Assembly (NCBI GenBank): GCA_902621725.1 | Contig: CACNND010000001.1 | Span: forward strand, 83,726-147,725 | Length of the DNA: 64,000 nt | DNA from: an uncultured Alphaproteobacteria bacterium | GTDB lineage: Bacteria > Pseudomonadota > Alphaproteobacteria > HIMB59 > GCA-002718135 | Reading direction: 5' to 3' | Part shown: one piece after another, positions 5,403 through 11,484 of the stretch | Position numbering within the stretch: position 1 is the first letter of the stretch | Layout: each line of letters starts with the position of its first letter | Translations under genes and position numbers: made by a program | The notes under the pieces: generated by a model | The model's input: the letters and a program-made list of their open reading frames with translations, nothing else | The model's database searches: none | What the model was told of the DNA's origin: nothing

Positions 5403-7889
5403 TTAAAAATTGTACGTGAGCATTAATTCTGCTTCTTGATTAGAATTATTACTAATAAACTGATTAGCATTAAACCCTAAATCAAAACCATATATATTTT
5501 TTGATATACCAAGTTTAGCCTCTGTGTTTTCATCACCAGCTAATGACAGACTGTATTGTGTCTCACGATTTGATATAAAGTTAATAGCAAAATCTATAGT
5601 ATCTCTACGTTCACTCCTGTTACCTTGAACCCTACTATAACTAGAGTTAATATTTAAATAATCTCCAGCAATAAATGTTAACCCAATCATAGAGCTGATT
5701 AAATGATCTGAATTAGCTTCTTGCGTATAAGTATAAATTGTTGAAGTGTCTGTTACATAATTGATCTTGGCATCAGATTTGTTACTAAAATCAGTAATAA
5801 ATTTAAGCGATCCAAATGGTTGAAATTTATTTTCATTAAACTGAATATTATCACTAACTTCAAAACCAAATGAGGCTAATCCACTCTCAATTCTCTGACT
5901 TGCATAATACAACGCATTTAATCCAGTCTCCTTGTAGTCATCAAGTTTAGTATAACCTAAATCAAGACGTCCAATTGGTGTTATATTAAAATCACCTTTA
6001 TCAATTGTTTTACCGTAATTAATAGAGCCAAATATTTGTGTTCCATCCCGCGTCCCAGTTAATACATTAGAATTATGGACTCTTTTCAAATCACTTTCTA
6101 TTAACCCTATGCCTAATAATGTTTCGATAAAATTATTATTATCAAGTGGCCTTGCTCGGTAAATAGAGAAATTTATATTTTCACTATCAACACTTGTTCC
6201 ATTTGTTCCAATATCCGTATCACTTTCACCATACTGAATAGCAAAACCAAGAAAATCACTATCACTTAATTTTTTATCAAATCCTAATGCTACTGCTTGA
6301 CCTTCAGTTTCTTGTTTTGATGAATTTATACTATCACCAATTTTTGATACATAAGTTGATCCAGATGTCCATGCAGACCAATTACCTGGCATAATGGAAT
6401 TGGTATTTTTTTCTATATTATCATTTGCTAATGAGGCAAGAATGTTATTATCAATATCTAATTGTAATCCTTGGCTCGACAAAGAATCACTTAATCTATT
6501 TTGTCTTAAAAATCGTAAACGATTTGAGACAGTATCAATAGACTGACTAATATAGTTTTTTGCTAATTCACTTTGCGCATCTATGGAGCCTACAACATCT
6601 TTAATTGTTGTTGGATCCAACCTATCATCGCTAACAGTAAAACTTAAAGTCGTTGTTGACGTTATACCAGCATAAGAAGCATCACTTCCATCATCAAAAG
6701 CTGTAGCATCAATTAATACATAATATTCAACATTATATTCAAAATCTGAGCTGGGATTAATTGTTATCGCTGTTGTTCCAGTACCAGTTACTTGACTACT
6801 GGTGACATCTATTGTTTCAACAAGAGAATTATCAGATGTTTTATAAATTTCTATATTACCACTTTCTACATCCATCTTTTCACTAAAGGTTAGAACTATA
6901 TTAGCATCTATTGAAACACCTGTAGCGTTATCCGCTGGTGAAGAAGAGCTTAGAGTCGGAACTGCTAAATTATAAGCTGCATTATTTAAGGTATATTCAT
7001 TAACTTCATCATTACTACCACCAGTTTTATCGCCATCAGTTCCCGTAATAAATACTTTACTACCATCATCATTAAAAGCTATACCTTCAGGTTGCACTTC
7101 CTCATCTGCTACACTATATTCATCAACGAGAGTTGCACTAGAAATATCAAAACCTGTTGTTAAACTATATTCATAAATCTTTCGTTCGATTCTATTCAAA
7201 ACAAATAATGTAGTTCCATCACTACTGAATGCCAACGATGATGCGCCAGAAGTTACAGTTAAACTATCCACATATGTTACTGTTGATGATAAATCAAATG
7301 CAGTTTCAACAGTGTATTCATCGATTTCATCGCCATCCTCAATAAACAACTTTGTACCAGTAGAATCGAATTCTATTGCCAAAAAATTTCCAGACTCGTC
7401 AGGATCAAAAGTATTAAGGTGAGTTGCCGATGATATTTCATAGGGTACGGTAAGCCTATATGTTATTACACCATGTTGGTTTACCGAAAGATACATTCTA
7501 TCGCCGTCTTCATTAAATCTTATATCATGAATTCTTGTACCTCCTCCATTTGTTGAAAATTTTAAATCTGTTATAACAGTCGTAGTAGCCTCACCATCAT
7601 CTGTATCTCTTATTTGTTTTTCAAAGCTTTTTGTTGATACGTCATATGAAGTAGTTAAATCATATTGAACTACAACATTTTTAAAGCCTGGGTCGGTACC
7701 AACAATATACATTTTATCACCATCATCATCGAATGTTATCCCGTAAGATAAACTAAATTCAGTATGAGTTGCTGCAGCATCCTCATGATTTATATCTGCT
7801 TTAAGAGAATTGATAAAAATACAATTGAAAAATAAGAAAATTAAAAGATAGATTAAATATTTTTTTATTTTGACCAAACTTACAAACAT
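5403..7889 (-). CDS. Autotransporter (type Va) outer-membrane protein with a beta-propeller-repeat and Ig-like passenger
   Basis: Signal peptide, then five or more repeats of F(N/S/D)xDG(D/T/S)(K/R)(M/L)(Y/F)(I/V) (YVTN-like blades). Next comes an SbsA/Big_5-like segment (PADNATGVSIDANIVLTFSEKMD). The C-terminal 280 aa or so have alternating beta-barrel character and end in ...LMLTYNF. Confidence 0.75.
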   Translation of the reverse strand: MFVSLVKIKKYLIYLLIFLFFNCIFINSLKADINHEDAAATHTEFSLSYGITFDDDGDKMYIVGTDPGFKNVVVQYDLTTSYDVSTKSFEKQIRDTDDGEATTTVITDLKFSTNGGGTRIHDIRFNEDGDRMYLSVNQHGVITYRLTVPYEISSATHLNTFDPDESGNFLAIEFDSTGTKLFIEDGDEIDEYTVETAFDLSSTVTYVDSLTVTSGASSLAFSSDGTTLFVLNRIERKIYEYSLTTGFDISSATLVDEYSVADEEVQPEGIAFNDDGSKVFITGTDGDKTGGSNDEVNEYTLNNAAYNLAVPTLSSSSPADNATGVSIDANIVLTFSEKMDVESGNIEIYKTSDNSLVETIDVTSSQVTGTGTTAITINPSSDFEYNVEYYVLIDATAFDDGSDASYAGITSTTTLSFTVSDDRLDPTTIKDVVGSIDAQSELAKNYISQSIDTVSNRLRFLRQNRLSDSLSSQGLQLDIDNNILASLANDNIEKNTNSIMPGNWSAWTSGSTYVSKIGDSINSSKQETEGQAVALGFDKKLSDSDFLGFAIQYGESDTDIGTNGTSVDSENINFSIYRARPLDNNNFIETLLGIGLIESDLKRVHNSNVLTGTRDGTQIFGSINYGKTIDKGDFNITPIGRLDLGYTKLDDYKETGLNALYYASQRIESGLASFGFEVSDNIQFNENKFQPFGSLKFITDFSNKSDAKINYVTDTSTIYTYTQEANSDHLISSMIGLTFIAGDYLNINSSYSRVQGNRSERRDTIDFAINFISNRETQYSLSLAGDENTEAKLGISKNIYGFDLGFNANQFISNNSNQEAELMLTYNF

Positions 7890-9430: not shown

Positions 9431-9910
9431 ATGAAAATTGGCAGATACAAATACGAGTTTGATTTCTTTAGTTGGATCAAAAAAACTGAGCTAGTTGAAC
9501 TAGATGGTGTTAACCCATCTGATGATCCGGTGCGCCCAGAACTGGATAATGATTTTCGTACATCAAAAGGAAGAAAAATTTTTGGCCTTAAATATAAAGA
9601 TGATATTGAAGGTATTGCCTGCTTTGCCTTTACAAATGAAATACCTGCAACCATTAAAGAAATGGATTTAATGAGCGTTGAAGAAGATCAAGCAACCATT
9701 CCTATTGCCTATACGTTATGGTCTTTTAAAAAAGGAGCTGGGAAAAAGATTATGAAAGAACTGCAAAAATATATCAAATCAAAAAAGCAGTTTGAGAGTA
9801 TTATTACCATTTCTCCCCTAACTCCTGTTGCTACTCATTATCATATTCGAAATGGAGCACGATTAATAAAAATTAATCCAACAACACAAAATTTTGAGTA
9901 TAAAATTTAA
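9431..9910 (+). CDS. Hypothetical protein, possible acyl-CoA N-acyltransferase (GNAT-like) fold
   Basis: 159 aa. Only weak support: KKGAGKKIM resembles the GNAT R/QxxGxG/A CoA-binding loop. The antisense ORF 9403..9654 is rejected. Confidence 0.35.
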   Translation: MKIGRYKYEFDFFSWIKKTELVELDGVNPSDDPVRPELDNDFRTSKGRKIFGLKYKDDIEGIACFAFTNEIPATIKEMDLMSVEEDQATIPIAYTLWSFKKGAGKKIMKELQKYIKSKKQFESIITISPLTPVATHYHIRNGARLIKINPTTQNFEYKI

Positions 9911-9916
9911 AAGTAA

Positions 9917-10600
9917 TTAGTCTGTTAAAGCAATACTGACTGTTGGTTCATTCGGCCACATTCTACAAGTTCCACCTGCATCAACTGCACCACCTACTGC
10001 TGTCGATACATCAAATGATACTTTTATTTTTGGAGATACAAGGCCAACTGTATAACTACTAGTTAAGGCGTAAATTAATTGCATTTGAGTAGCTGATGGT
10101 GAACCCACGCTCATAGACACTGCTGAACTTGGACTAGAATAGGCAATTTGAATATTGCTTCCAGAGCCATAATTACCGGCATCTACTATTTCAAAAGTTG
10201 TATTAGTTTTACCTGACGTATCGTCTTTTGTTCCTACATGCATAGTTGTTGCATTAGCCTCTGTACTTCCATCAGTAGTACATGTTCCATTTGATCCATC
10301 AGTAACAGTTCCGCTTATTGTAAATGTTCTATCAAGAGTAACTCTCAAATGACTGAAAGTTTGTCCAATTGGTAATCCAGATGTTGATCCAAATTTTGCT
10401 GCCTCAGCACCTGCTGAAAGATTTGCAATATTAACACTCTGCGAACCAGAAGCCACTTCCGTTGGCGAAGAACATGTCACTTCTCCACACAGTTCTACTT
10501 TTAACATAGTAACAGTGTAAGTATCTGCAGAACCAGAAGCTCCAAAAAGTTTAAAAGAAATTAATAACAATGAACAAAAAACTATTAGAAAATTTTTCAT
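9917..10600 (-). CDS. Secreted Thr/Ser/Gly-rich beta-rich protein of unknown function
   Basis: Clear signal peptide (MKNFLIVFCSLLLISFKLFGA) and three Cys-containing segments. Its start overlaps the stop of the upstream barrel gene by 1 nt (TAATG). Confidence 0.6.
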   Translation of the reverse strand: MKNFLIVFCSLLLISFKLFGASGSADTYTVTMLKVELCGEVTCSSPTEVASGSQSVNIANLSAGAEAAKFGSTSGLPIGQTFSHLRVTLDRTFTISGTVTDGSNGTCTTDGSTEANATTMHVGTKDDTSGKTNTTFEIVDAGNYGSGSNIQIAYSSPSSAVSMSVGSPSATQMQLIYALTSSYTVGLVSPKIKVSFDVSTAVGGAVDAGGTCRMWPNEPTVSIALTD

Positions 10601-11484
10601 TAATTTGACCTTGCCATTACTACACCTGATCCTTCAGACTCAATTATTTGTTTATTAGTTCTTCTAACAATACTAAGTAACTCCGTACTCATATCAAACT
10701 GAACAAAAGCTTTTTCACTTACAAATTCTGTTGAAGCAGTTGGTGTTTCTCTTGGAGGATAAATAAAAGTAATTTTTGCAAAATTATCAGTTCCAGAAAT
10801 ATTATTGTCATCAAAACCTACTTCGGCTATTAAATTTGGAGTTAAGGCCATTTCTAAACTAAATTTCTCACCCTTAGAATCTTTAGAATTCTTTTCAGCT
10901 TCCCAGTTATAAGAATTACCAATTACATTAACCCATGGAATATATGGAACTTGACCAACAACACTAATCTCATAACCGTCAAGTGTTCTTTCAGTATAAT
11001 CTCCAACAGTTTTATCTCCACTTATTGCAGAATAATAATTTGCTAAAGCATCAAAAGCAGATGATCGAAGTTCTAACCCAACACTAGCTCTAGCATTTCC
11101 TTTTTCATCGTAATCAAAGAAAAAATTTGCACCCGTCATAGAAGTTTTACTATCTGATAACTTTCTGTAACCAACTCCAATATTTCCAGCTAATCTACTA
11201 TCACCTCTTATTTTATGATCACTTAATTGTAATTGGATAAAGGTCGCATCAACACTATGATGTATTGCTATTGGTCTAACTGTAACAATAGAAAATTCAG
11301 GTTTGTAATCCTCTCCCATATCAATACGGACTTGTGTATCGCCCGCACCATCTAATATGTTTTCTACAGCATCAGATAATCCAGAGGTAAATCTTTCAAT
11401 TAATCCTTGTTTGACTTTTTGTTCATCACTAGCAAACAAATTTGTAGAAAATAAAAGGACAAAAAGGAGAGTTATTAATCGCAC
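10600..11484 (-). CDS. Inverse-autotransporter (intimin/invasin-type) beta-barrel domain protein lacking a passenger
   Basis: Signal peptide plus segments colinear with the intimin beta-domain as I remember it: GNIGVGYRKL (NLGLGYRYF), GANFFFDYD (GVNAFYDQD), ERTLDGYEISVVGQVPYIPW (ERPANGFDIRAEGYLPAWP), LEMALTPNLIAEVGFD (VGLNYTPVPLITLGVD). The protein ends about 50 aa after the barrel. Confidence 0.65.
   Translation of the reverse strand: MRLITLLFVLLFSTNLFASDEQKVKQGLIERFTSGLSDAVENILDGAGDTQVRIDMGEDYKPEFSIVTVRPIAIHHSVDATFIQLQLSDHKIRGDSRLAGNIGVGYRKLSDSKTSMTGANFFFDYDEKGNARASVGLELRSSAFDALANYYSAISGDKTVGDYTERTLDGYEISVVGQVPYIPWVNVIGNSYNWEAEKNSKDSKGEKFSLEMALTPNLIAEVGFDDNNISGTDNFAKITFIYPPRETPTASTEFVSEKAFVQFDMSTELLSIVRRTNKQIIESEGSGVVMARSN

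What the first reader, a model, noticed from the sequence alone, without database searches (positions are those of the whole stretch)
9917..11484. Passenger-less inverse-autotransporter barrel translationally coupled to a separate secreted protein
The 294-aa product of 10600..11484 has a signal peptide and a beta-domain colinear with the intimin/invasin barrel. It stops about 50 aa after the barrel, with no Ig-like passenger.

Its stop overlaps (TAATG) the start of a 227-aa protein. That protein has its own signal peptide and is Thr/Ser/Gly-rich and beta-rich, which is compositionally what a passenger would look like.

Three readings are possible:
- a type Ve system split into barrel and passenger polypeptides, a two-partner-like variant
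- a barrel that anchors or exports a separately Sec-exported partner
- a decayed adhesin

Either of the first two would be unusual for this secretion family and for a streamlined planktonic genome.
Basis: partly seen in the sequence, partly recalled or inferred. Interest (0 to 1): 0.6.

Follow-up and report, generated by a model that had tools for sequence, protein, structure and literature searches.

The report
Passenger-less inverse-autotransporter barrel with dedicated partner
A marine SAR11-type bacterium carries a tightly coupled, widely conserved gene pair: a minimal intimin-type outer-membrane barrel with no adhesin attached, and a separately exported beta-rich protein of an unnamed family. 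It most likely works as a stripped-down version of the rare 'two-partner' inverse-autotransporter system known from Salmonella (ZirT/ZirS).

Summary
Window 10600..11484(-) encodes a 294-aa protein with a signal peptide and a clear Pfam IAT_beta domain (E=6e-29). Its stop overlaps (TAATG) the start of a 227-aa Ser/Thr/Gly-rich, all-beta protein with its own signal peptide.

The "50 aa after the barrel" are not a stub. They are the family's alpha-turn, lumen-crossing linker and terminal beta-strand, and only about 11 residues follow.

The pair is not a decayed adhesin:
- In 65 of 68 related loci the barrel (about 275-333 aa) sits directly upstream of the partner.
- The gap is -11 to +5 nt in 64 of 65, and the genes are never fused.
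- dN/dS is about 0.05-0.37 for both genes.
- One genome has lost both genes together.

The partner family is large (578 clusters at 50% identity) and matches no solved fold or Ig-like passenger. It is linked only remotely to DUF4382.

The closest known system is ZirT/ZirS, the "two-partner inverse autotransporters" of Heinz 2016, which also noted barrel-only members. This barrel lacks the Ig-like domains proposed to bind the substrate, and the lineage is alphaproteobacterial. Whether the partner reaches the cell surface remains inferred.

Verdict: new variant of a known kind, moderate interest.

The parts
10600..11484 (-). Barrel gene: 294-aa minimal inverse-autotransporter beta-domain protein (GTG start, TAA stop)
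   Evidence: ORF. Pfam IAT_beta E=6.1e-29. 286 homologs, of which the 120 listed are about 294-295 aa apart from a few shorter entries of 239-279 aa. dN/dS 0.07-0.37.
11431..11484 (-). Barrel signal peptide, aa 1-18 (MRLITLLFVLLFSTNLFA|SD)
   Evidence: Read from the sequence. A18 and D20 are invariant in alignment A2. The cleavage site is inferred, not predicted by a dedicated tool.
10786..11421 (-). IAT_beta Pfam match, aa 22-233: periplasmic helix plus most of the 12-strand barrel
   Evidence: Alignment to intimin 252-390 conserves intimin R288 as R132 and R325 as R166 (residue roles from PMC13078405).
10636..10785 (-). aa 234-283: last barrel strand (FAKITFIY), alpha-turn region, lumen linker and terminal beta-strand (LLSIVRRTNKQIIES, colinear with intimin 434-448 RYDLVQRNNNIILEY)
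   Evidence: The family tail motif is conserved in all 65 barrels. The SAR11 Ia tail aligns to intimin 403-455 with score 57, against a maximum of 54 in 500 shuffles. Block 271-280 is among the most conserved of the protein. The window's own tail is not significant alone (p=0.63). It is assigned through the family alignment.
10603..10635 (-). aa 284-294 (EGSGVVMARSN): the only residues beyond the beta-domain, predicted to be extracellular and about one beta-strand long
   Evidence: Position relative to intimin Y448 and the D00 start. Nearly invariant within the window's clade, but only averagely conserved family-wide. Its role is inferred.
10598..10602 (-). TAATG stop/start overlap (translational coupling)
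   Evidence: The same 1-nt overlap (TAATG or TGATG) occurs in 39 of 65 pairs, and the gap is -11 to +5 nt in 64 of 65.
9917..10600 (-). Partner gene: 227-aa Sec-exported, Ser/Thr/Gly-rich beta protein of an unnamed family (remote DUF4382 link)
   Evidence: ORF. 49 close homologs. 578 clusters in an exhaustive profile search. AF2 pLDDT 79.5, all-beta. Cys38, Cys43 and Cys107 are nearly invariant across the deep alignment, and all four cysteines, including Cys212, are invariant in the closer alignment A1. DUF4382 bridge through P0303.
10541..10600 (-). Partner signal peptide, aa 1-20 (MKNFLIVFCSLLLISFKLFG|ASG); no lipobox
   Evidence: Read from the sequence and alignment A1. The cleavage site is inferred.

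Best explanation
This is a self-contained two-gene outer-membrane module.

Gene 1 makes a minimal inverse-autotransporter (type Ve) beta-domain. It has a Sec signal, a short periplasmic helix and a 12-strand barrel. It also has an alpha-turn and linker that run back through the barrel lumen and end in the short beta-strand that locks onto the extracellular loops. About 11 residues follow on the cell surface. There is no passenger and no LysM domain.

Gene 2 is translated by coupling at a TAATG overlap, which should give roughly 1:1 output. It encodes a separately Sec-exported, probably disulfide-bonded beta-sandwich-like protein of a large unnamed family.

Shown: the identity and completeness of the beta-domain; strict co-occurrence, adjacency and coupling of the two genes; purifying selection on both; loss of both together; absence of fused forms.

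Inferred: the barrel is the partner's dedicated outer-membrane device. It either helps the partner across the outer membrane or holds it at the cell surface (or both), as ZirT does for ZirS in Salmonella. It would do so without the Ig-like domains that ZirT is proposed to use as substrate receptors. The short conserved C-terminal strand and the extracellular loops are the most likely docking site.

My confidence that this is a functional barrel-partner pair is about 0.9. My confidence that the partner ends up surface-exposed or secreted in a barrel-dependent way is about 0.4-0.45.
For: - Barrel identity: Pfam IAT_beta E=6e-29; intimin and invasin chains.
- Structural contacts that hold the linker in intimin are conserved: R288/R132, R325/R166, E447/E282, V438/V273, R440/R275.
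- The protein ends about 11 aa after the beta-domain in every relative.
- Pairing: 65 of 68 partner loci have the barrel immediately upstream on the same strand. The gap is -11 to +5 nt in 64 of 65, and 39 have a 1-nt overlap. This includes very divergent partners: P0260, P0312 and P0303.
- No fused form: the longest of the best 150 of 578 partner clusters is 376 aa, and the 120 listed barrel homologs are about 294-295 aa or shorter.
- dN/dS is 0.05-0.37 for both genes.
- Both genes were deleted together in L062, leaving a 126-bp 3' remnant.
- Flanking genes are unrelated housekeeping genes and differ between clades, so the pair is the unit.
- Tandem duplication occurs as a module (L004).
- Surface location (soft evidence): the partner's composition (Lys 2.9%, Ser+Thr 29.5%) matches the type Va passenger in the same window (3.0%, 23.5%). 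It does not match a SAR11 periplasmic binding protein (10.6%, 10.3%).
- The partner's centre is indel-rich and variable between conserved terminal strands, and its dN was higher than the barrel's in 6 of the 8 comparisons with the window copy.
- A characterised DUF4382 protein is a surface lipoglycoprotein (PMC8241124).
- Precedent: ZirS (276 aa, Sec signal, encoded directly downstream of the IAT ZirT) is secreted only when ZirT is present (PMC2270342).
Against: - No experiment or structure places the partner outside the cell.
- The barrel lumen is predicted to be occupied by the protein's own linker, as in intimin. This leaves the same unresolved problem that Heinz et al. called a 'Gordian knot' for ZirT.
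- The barrel lacks the IgSF domains proposed as the substrate receptor.
- The partner shows no similarity to ZirS-like or Ig-like domains.
- A probable long-range disulfide (C107-C212; the pairing is inferred) would make threading through a narrow pore harder.
- The barrel AF2 model failed (pLDDT 38) and no complex could be predicted, so no interface is known.
- The extreme C-terminal tail is only averagely conserved across the whole family.
- The composition comparison uses single proteins.
Confidence: 0.45

Rival explanations
1. Periplasmic-side complex. The partner never crosses the outer membrane. It binds the barrel's periplasmic face (the N-terminal helix, the turns and the alpha-turn plug), and the barrel simply tethers a periplasmic beta-sandwich protein to the outer membrane.
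For: - The barrel lumen is plugged by its own linker, and no export route is evident.
- The partner has a plain SPI signal and conserved cysteines, which fit periplasmic folding.
- Coupling and co-occurrence fit any stable complex.
Against: - The partner's composition resembles a surface passenger rather than a SAR11 periplasmic protein.
- Variable, indel-rich loops and faster evolution than the barrel in most comparisons are more typical of exposed proteins.
- The ZirS precedent is for export.
- The N-terminal periplasmic helix of the barrel is its least conserved mature segment (block 21-30 = 0.24).
Confidence: 0.22
2. Literal split type Ve. The partner is the former passenger of a once-fused inverse autotransporter. 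It is now threaded through its cognate barrel, or through a BamA-barrel hybrid pore, during barrel assembly.
For: - Gene order (barrel, then partner) mirrors the domain order of IATs.
- The partner has passenger-like composition and is all-beta.
- Gal-Mor et al. raised molecular separation as a possible origin of ZirTS.
Against: - The barrel retains its own complete linker and terminal strand, so nothing is missing that the partner would supply.
- No fused relatives appear among the 150 listed partner clusters (of 578) or the 120 listed barrel homologs (of 286).
- The partner has no similarity to Big/IgSF passengers. Its only remote link is to DUF4382, a domain found in lipoproteins.
- Against: a demonstration that the partner is exported after barrel assembly is complete, or that it is not exported at all.
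Confidence: 0.1
3. Two independent envelope proteins that merely share an operon. The barrel-only protein has its own role (a structural outer-membrane protein, a receptor or similar), and the partner acts elsewhere.
For: Barrel-only IATs exist in other taxa without a reported partner (Heinz 2016). No interface has been shown here.
Against: - 65 of 68 loci are adjacent, with stop/start overlap kept down to about 25-30% partner identity and across different neighbourhoods.
- The two genes are duplicated together (L004) and deleted together (L062).
Confidence: 0.08
4. Decayed adhesin. A frameshift or stop split or truncated a former intimin-like gene, and the ORFs are remnants.
For: Only the absence of a passenger and the back-to-back ORFs.
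Against: - Same lengths and the same two-ORF layout in at least 65 loci and hundreds of metagenome clusters.
- dN/dS is well below 1 for both genes.
- The partner has its own conserved signal peptide.
- A real remnant (L062, 126 bp) looks entirely different.
Confidence: 0.02

Closest known systems
ZirT/ZirS(/ZirU) of Salmonella, the 'two-partner inverse autotransporters' (Gal-Mor 2008, PMC2270342; Heinz 2016, PMC4943183)
   Same: An Int/Inv-family barrel gene sits immediately upstream of a gene for a roughly 25-30 kDa protein with its own Sec signal (ZirS is 276 aa; here 227 aa). The pair is an autonomous module. In ZirTS, export of the partner depends on the barrel.
   Different: - ZirT is 660 aa with C-terminal Ig-like domains, which are proposed to bind the substrates. 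This barrel stops about 11 aa after the beta-domain.
- ZirS and ZirU resemble ZirT's Ig domains. This partner has no detectable Ig or ZirS similarity.
- ZirTS is gammaproteobacterial and horizontally acquired. This pair sits in a stable syntenic region of SAR11-type Alphaproteobacteria.
- Barrel-dependent export is untested here.
Intimin/invasin beta-domain (PDB 4E1S, 4E1T; Pfam IAT_beta PF11924)
   Same: Signal peptide, periplasmic helix, 12-strand barrel, alpha-turn, lumen linker and terminal beta-strand, with key contact residues conserved.
   Different: No LysM domain, no D00-D3 or Big/lectin passenger, and only about 11 residues beyond the Y448 equivalent. Intimin R434 is not conserved (it is Leu here).
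'invasin_beta-only' / very short C-terminal extension group of IATs (Heinz 2016)
   Same: The same barrel-only architecture. [quoted passage not shown]
   Different: That survey found the family 'almost exclusively' in Gammaproteobacteria. It does not report, in the text I could read, a dedicated conserved partner for the barrel-only group. Its supplementary tables were not available.
Type Vb two-partner secretion (FhaC/FHA)
   Same: The concept: a separate barrel and a Sec-exported substrate encoded side by side.
   Different: TpsB is a 16-strand Omp85 barrel with POTRA domains, and TpsA carries a TPS domain. None of these is present.
DUF4382 (PF14321) extracytoplasmic beta-sandwich domain
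   Same: One bona fide member of the partner family (P0303), itself encoded after an IAT_beta gene, passes the Pfam threshold (29.7 bits against 25). It aligns full-length to the window partner's profile (hhalign 99.5%).
   Different: The window protein and 108 of 110 family members do not hit DUF4382. DUF4382 has no known function, and typical members are lipoproteins, whereas these have SPI signals.

Membership tests
Inverse autotransporter / type Ve (intimin-invasin family) | N-terminal Sec signal peptide | tested here: met
   MRLITLLFVLLFSTNLFA|SD. The hydrophobic core and the A18/D20 site are conserved in A2. Read from the sequence; no dedicated predictor was available.
Inverse autotransporter / type Ve (intimin-invasin family) | IAT_beta (PF11924) beta-barrel domain above the curated threshold | tested here: met
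   101.9 bits against a cut-off of 22.3, E=6.1e-29. Intimin 4e1s E=4.7e-5 and invasin 4e1t E=4.7e-4.
Inverse autotransporter / type Ve (intimin-invasin family) | Linker returning through the barrel lumen and ending in a short extracellular beta-strand | tested here: met
   Sequence level only. The family tail motif is colinear with intimin 434-448, and the SAR11 Ia tail aligns to intimin 403-455 better than all 500 shuffles. Contact residues R132, R166 and E282 are conserved. The 3D model failed (pLDDT 38), so the topology is inferred.
Inverse autotransporter / type Ve (intimin-invasin family) | C-terminal passenger of IgSF (Big/fibronectin-like) or lectin domains | tested here: not met
   The protein ends 11 aa after the beta-domain. 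IAT_beta is the only Pfam domain. The same holds in all relatives.
Two-partner inverse autotransporter (ZirT/ZirS type) | IAT barrel gene directly followed by a gene for a non-barrel protein with its own Sec signal | tested here: met
   TAATG overlap. Conserved in 65 of 68 loci.
Two-partner inverse autotransporter (ZirT/ZirS type) | Translocator carries C-terminal IgSF domains (the proposed substrate-binding module) | tested here: not met
   No sequence exists beyond the linker plus 11 aa.
Two-partner inverse autotransporter (ZirT/ZirS type) | Substrate has an IgSF fold similar to the translocator's passenger domains | tested here: not met
   - hhalign against the intimin passenger: probability 0.1%.
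- Profiles A1 and A3 against all PDB sequences: no significant hit.
- Foldseek against the PDB: best E=0.39, TM at most 0.31.
Two-partner inverse autotransporter (ZirT/ZirS type) | Secretion or surface exposure of the partner depends on the barrel | not testable with these tools
   This needs an experiment or at least a model of the complex.
Type Vb two-partner secretion (TpsB/TpsA) | Omp85-type barrel with POTRA domains, and a TPS domain on the substrate | tested here: not met
   Pfam shows only IAT_beta on the barrel and nothing on the partner.
DUF4382 (PF14321), for the partner | Score above the Pfam gathering threshold | tested here: inconclusive
   The window partner has no hit. Family member P0303 scores 29.7 bits against 25 and is homologous to the window partner over its full length. 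Only 2 of 110 members hit, so the relationship is remote and transitive.
Slam / type XI (DUF560 barrel plus surface lipoprotein) | DUF560 barrel, and a substrate with a lipobox | tested here: not met
   The barrel is IAT_beta. The partner has no lipobox Cys at the cleavage site in any aligned member.

The most novel reading that the evidence does not exclude
A minimal, natural two-component type Ve system. A passenger-less 12-strand barrel, plugged by its own linker and lacking any Ig-like receptor domain, would be sufficient to export or surface-anchor a separately Sec-exported protein of a new (DUF4382-related) family. Docking might occur by strand addition to the barrel's short C-terminal extracellular strand. 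The system would be a conserved surface component of SAR11-type bacteria, the most abundant heterotrophs in the ocean.
Probability: 0.3. Interest if true: 0.7.

Novelty: new variant of a known kind. Interest (0 to 1): 0.5.

Why it matters
How an inverse-autotransporter barrel whose pore is filled by its own linker can serve a separate substrate is an open problem, raised for ZirT/ZirS and unresolved since 2008-2016. This module is the same arrangement stripped to its essentials: no Ig-like domains and no LysM. It also has hundreds of natural sequence variants and a natural co-deletion, which makes the question directly testable, both by complex prediction and by heterologous co-expression.

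It also puts type Ve components in streamlined marine Alphaproteobacteria, whereas the family was considered almost exclusively gammaproteobacterial. It further points to a possible conserved surface protein of SAR11, which could matter for phage or grazer recognition or for particle contact. The partner defines a large, currently unnamed protein family (578 clusters at 50% identity).

Tried and rejected
- AF2 of the barrel from a 26-sequence alignment failed (pLDDT 38). The prediction cap then prevented a retry or a model of the complex.
- Partner profiles (28 and 110 sequences) against all PDB sequences gave nothing significant.
- hhalign of the partner against intimin's passenger gave no similarity.
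- The window barrel's tail alone, against intimin, was not significant (p=0.63). The assignment rests on the family alignment plus the significant SAR11 Ia tail and two borderline tails.
- The promoter and terminator scan found fewer promoter-like sites than shuffles and no terminator, which is uninformative in 30% GC DNA.
- PHROGs and PADLOC gave nothing for the partner. The barrel has only a partial hit to phrog_7803.
- The viral contig scan found no relatives.
- Public names are all 'hypothetical protein'.
- Literature searches found no paper linking SAR11 with IAT, intimin or invasin, and no follow-up on barrel-only or two-partner IATs beyond Heinz 2016. The Heinz supplements are not held.
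- I first thought the extreme C-terminal tail was the most conserved part of the barrel. That holds only within the window's clade. Family-wide it is average, and the linker is the conserved element.
- Flanking genes gave no functional clue.
Full report
**Observation**

Window 10600..11484(-) and 9917..10600(-) are two intact ORFs of 294 and 227 aa. Their stop and start share one base (TAATG on the coding strand).

The 294-aa protein begins with a typical signal peptide. It scores 101.9 bits (E=6.1e-29, curated cut-off 22.3) on Pfam IAT_beta PF11924 over aa 22-233. It gives weak partial hits to NCBIfam inverse-autotransporter N-terminal models, and it hits the crystallised beta-domains of intimin (4e1s) and invasin (4e1t).

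The 227-aa protein has its own signal peptide and no lipobox. It matches nothing in Pfam or NCBIfam. It is strongly enriched in Ser, Thr and Gly and depleted in Lys relative to the window's other long ORFs. AlphaFold2 predicts an all-beta protein (pLDDT 79.5, pTM 0.76).

**Where the barrel protein stops**

I fetched intimin (eae) from E. coli O157:H7 Sakai. Its sequence carries the residue numbering used in a 2026 mutagenesis study (PMC13078405): an alpha-helical turn at 412-430, a linker at 434-444, and an essential terminal beta-strand at 446-449.

The tail motif shared by all SAR11-type barrels is LLxKV[KR]RxN[KI]I..E..G[ST]..[IV].R. It is colinear with intimin RYDLVQRNNNIILEY.
- A SAR11 Ia tail aligns to intimin 403-455 with a score that none of 500 shuffles reached.
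- Two other divergent tails land on the same segment at p of about 0.06.
- The window's own tail is too diverged to be significant alone (p=0.63). It is tied in through the family alignment.

Residues that hold the linker in intimin are kept: R288 as R132, R325 as R166, E447 as E282, V438 as V273, and R440 as R275.

The protein is therefore a complete beta-domain: barrel, plug and linker. It has only about 11 residues (EGSGVVMARSN) beyond the Y448 equivalent, at the point where intimin's first Ig-like domain D00 would begin. The AF2 model of the barrel itself failed (pLDDT 38), so this topology rests on sequence.

**Is the pair real or decayed?**

- The barrel has 286 homologs. Of the best 120, nearly all are 294-295 aa and a few are shorter entries of 239-279 aa.
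- The partner has 49 close homologs of about 222-237 aa. An exhaustive profile search of 1.84 billion cluster representatives found 578 clusters (301 at E<=1e-10). The longest of the best 150 is 376 aa, too short to include a barrel.
- A scan of one genome per GTDB species with the partner profile returned 58 loci. All are in Pelagibacteraceae single-cell genomes or related marine Alphaproteobacteria (MarineAlpha5 MAGs).
- Across these loci, the metagenome loci and the window, 65 of 68 partner genes have a barrel gene of about 275-333 aa (longest-start ORFs) immediately upstream on the same strand. The gap is -11 to +5 nt in 64 of 65, and 39 have the same 1-nt overlap.
- This holds for very divergent partners: P0260, P0312 and P0303.
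- Pairwise dN/dS is 0.05-0.37 for both genes.
- The neighbours are unrelated housekeeping genes. They differ between clades but are stable within Pelagibacteraceae: DAO oxidoreductase, EamA, 2-hydroxyacid dehydrogenase, deacetylase, MsrB, [pair], Gig2-like/DUF2805.
- L004 carries two barrel genes in tandem modules.
- L062 has the conserved neighbourhood, but both genes are deleted. Only 126 bp remain, encoding the partner's last ~41 residues.

These data refute the pseudogene or decayed-adhesin reading. They show that the two genes are inherited, duplicated and lost as one unit.

**What is the partner?**

- Alignments show a conserved first strand right after the signal peptide (Y.VTM.KVELC), a conserved H.RVT..R.F motif, a conserved C-terminal strand, and a variable, indel-rich centre.
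- All four cysteines are invariant in the closer alignment. C38, C43 and C107 remain nearly invariant in the 110-sequence alignment.
- The model has no significant Foldseek match in the PDB (best E=0.39, TM at most 0.31).
- Profiles of 28 and 110 sequences find nothing significant among PDB sequences.
- The profile does not match intimin's passenger (hhalign probability 0.1%).
- Scanning all 110 aligned members against Pfam gave one informative lead. P0303 passes the DUF4382 threshold (29.7 bits against 25). A second member hits only below E=5.
- P0303 is a full-length family member (hhalign 99.5%, E=4.5e-22), and it also follows an IAT_beta gene.
- So the family is probably a very divergent branch of the uncharacterised DUF4382 beta-sandwich domain. 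The one DUF4382 protein with localisation data that I found is a Sec/lipobox N-glycoprotein of Haloferax (PMC8241124).

**Mechanism**

What is shown is a complete, passenger-less IAT beta-domain and a dedicated, co-translated, Sec-exported partner. The function is inferred.

The closest experimentally studied system is ZirT/ZirS. ZirT (660 aa) is an Int/Inv-family barrel. ZirS (276 aa, Sec signal) is encoded directly downstream and is secreted only if ZirT is present (PMC2270342).

Heinz et al. 2016 generalised this to 'two-partner inverse autotransporters'. They noted that the plugged lumen makes the mechanism a 'Gordian knot'. They proposed that ZirT's Ig-like domains act as substrate receptors, like POTRA domains (PMC4943183). 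[quoted passage not shown] Barrel-only architecture is therefore not new in itself.

I consider it most likely (about 0.4-0.45) that the SAR11 barrel exports or surface-anchors its partner in a ZirTS-like way. Soft support:
- The partner's composition matches the type Va passenger encoded 2 kb away rather than a SAR11 periplasmic binding protein.
- Its loops are variable.
- Its dN was higher than the barrel's in 6 of the 8 comparisons with the window copy.

The main rival (about 0.2) is a periplasmic-side complex. A literal split of a once-fused passenger is less likely (about 0.1), because the barrel keeps its own full linker, no fused forms exist, and the partner is not Ig-like. Independent functions (about 0.08) and decay (about 0.02) are poorly supported.

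**Novelty and score**

The kind of system, an IAT barrel with a co-encoded Sec-exported partner, is known from Enterobacteria. So is the barrel-only architecture. Several things appear new:
- Their combination: a barrel with no receptor or passenger domain at all, strictly coupled to a partner.
- The partner family, which is unnamed and has only a remote DUF4382 link.
- The lineage. Heinz et al. found the family almost exclusively in Gammaproteobacteria. No paper in the searchable library links SAR11 to this family.

I rate it a new variant of a known kind, interest 0.5. It is a good minimal model for an open mechanistic question and a candidate SAR11 surface component, but the key functional step is untested.

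Noticed in passing
L062:1800-1925 (Pelagibacteraceae SAG AG-365-E11): This locus has the same conserved neighbourhood as other Pelagibacteraceae loci (EamA, MsrB, [gap], DUF2805), but the barrel and most of the partner are deleted. Only a 126-bp remnant survives, encoding the partner's last ~41 residues (50% identical to L017's partner). It is a natural co-deletion of the module.
   Followed up: partly
L066:1373-2497 and L067:1375-2499 (TARA metagenome contigs, 43% GC): P0296 (374 aa) carries a partner-family domain behind a long Cys-rich N-terminal extension, with no barrel gene nearby. Its neighbours are an acidic low-complexity protein and a multi-pass membrane protein, and the GC content is unlike SAR11. 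It may be a transfer of the domain into a different, perhaps eukaryotic, organism.
   Followed up: partly
window 5403..7889 (-): An 828-aa classical (type Va) autotransporter lies about 2 kb from the pair: PF03797 beta-domain (E=3e-32), a Big_5 Ig-like domain and beta-propeller-like repeats. This streamlined genome therefore carries both type Va and type Ve components. A 2025 paper discusses large autotransporter adhesins in coastal SAR11 (PMC12636525).
   Followed up: no
L004:125-3104: Two barrel genes lie in tandem: 295 aa followed by a partner, then a glutaredoxin gene, then a second barrel of about 300 aa followed by an ORF cut by the contig end. The module appears to duplicate as a unit.
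   Followed up: partly
window 10600..11484 (-), aa 93-183: The barrel gives a partial hit (E=3.8e-9) to PHROG phrog_7803, a 1642-position phage protein family of unknown function. This suggests that some phage-encoded giant proteins contain an IAT-like barrel segment.
   Followed up: no
window 9431..9910 (+): A 159-aa ORF converges on the partner gene, ending 7 nt from the partner's stop codon. It has no Pfam match. It is not conserved next to the pair in other clades.
   Followed up: no
P0257 (307 aa, metagenome cluster representative): The N-terminal half of a partner-family protein is joined to a different, repeat-like Gly/Thr/Ser-rich C-terminal region (…GNITGSSVSASIGKFTTVDIDGG…). It could be a domain-shuffled variant or an assembly chimera.
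   Followed up: no
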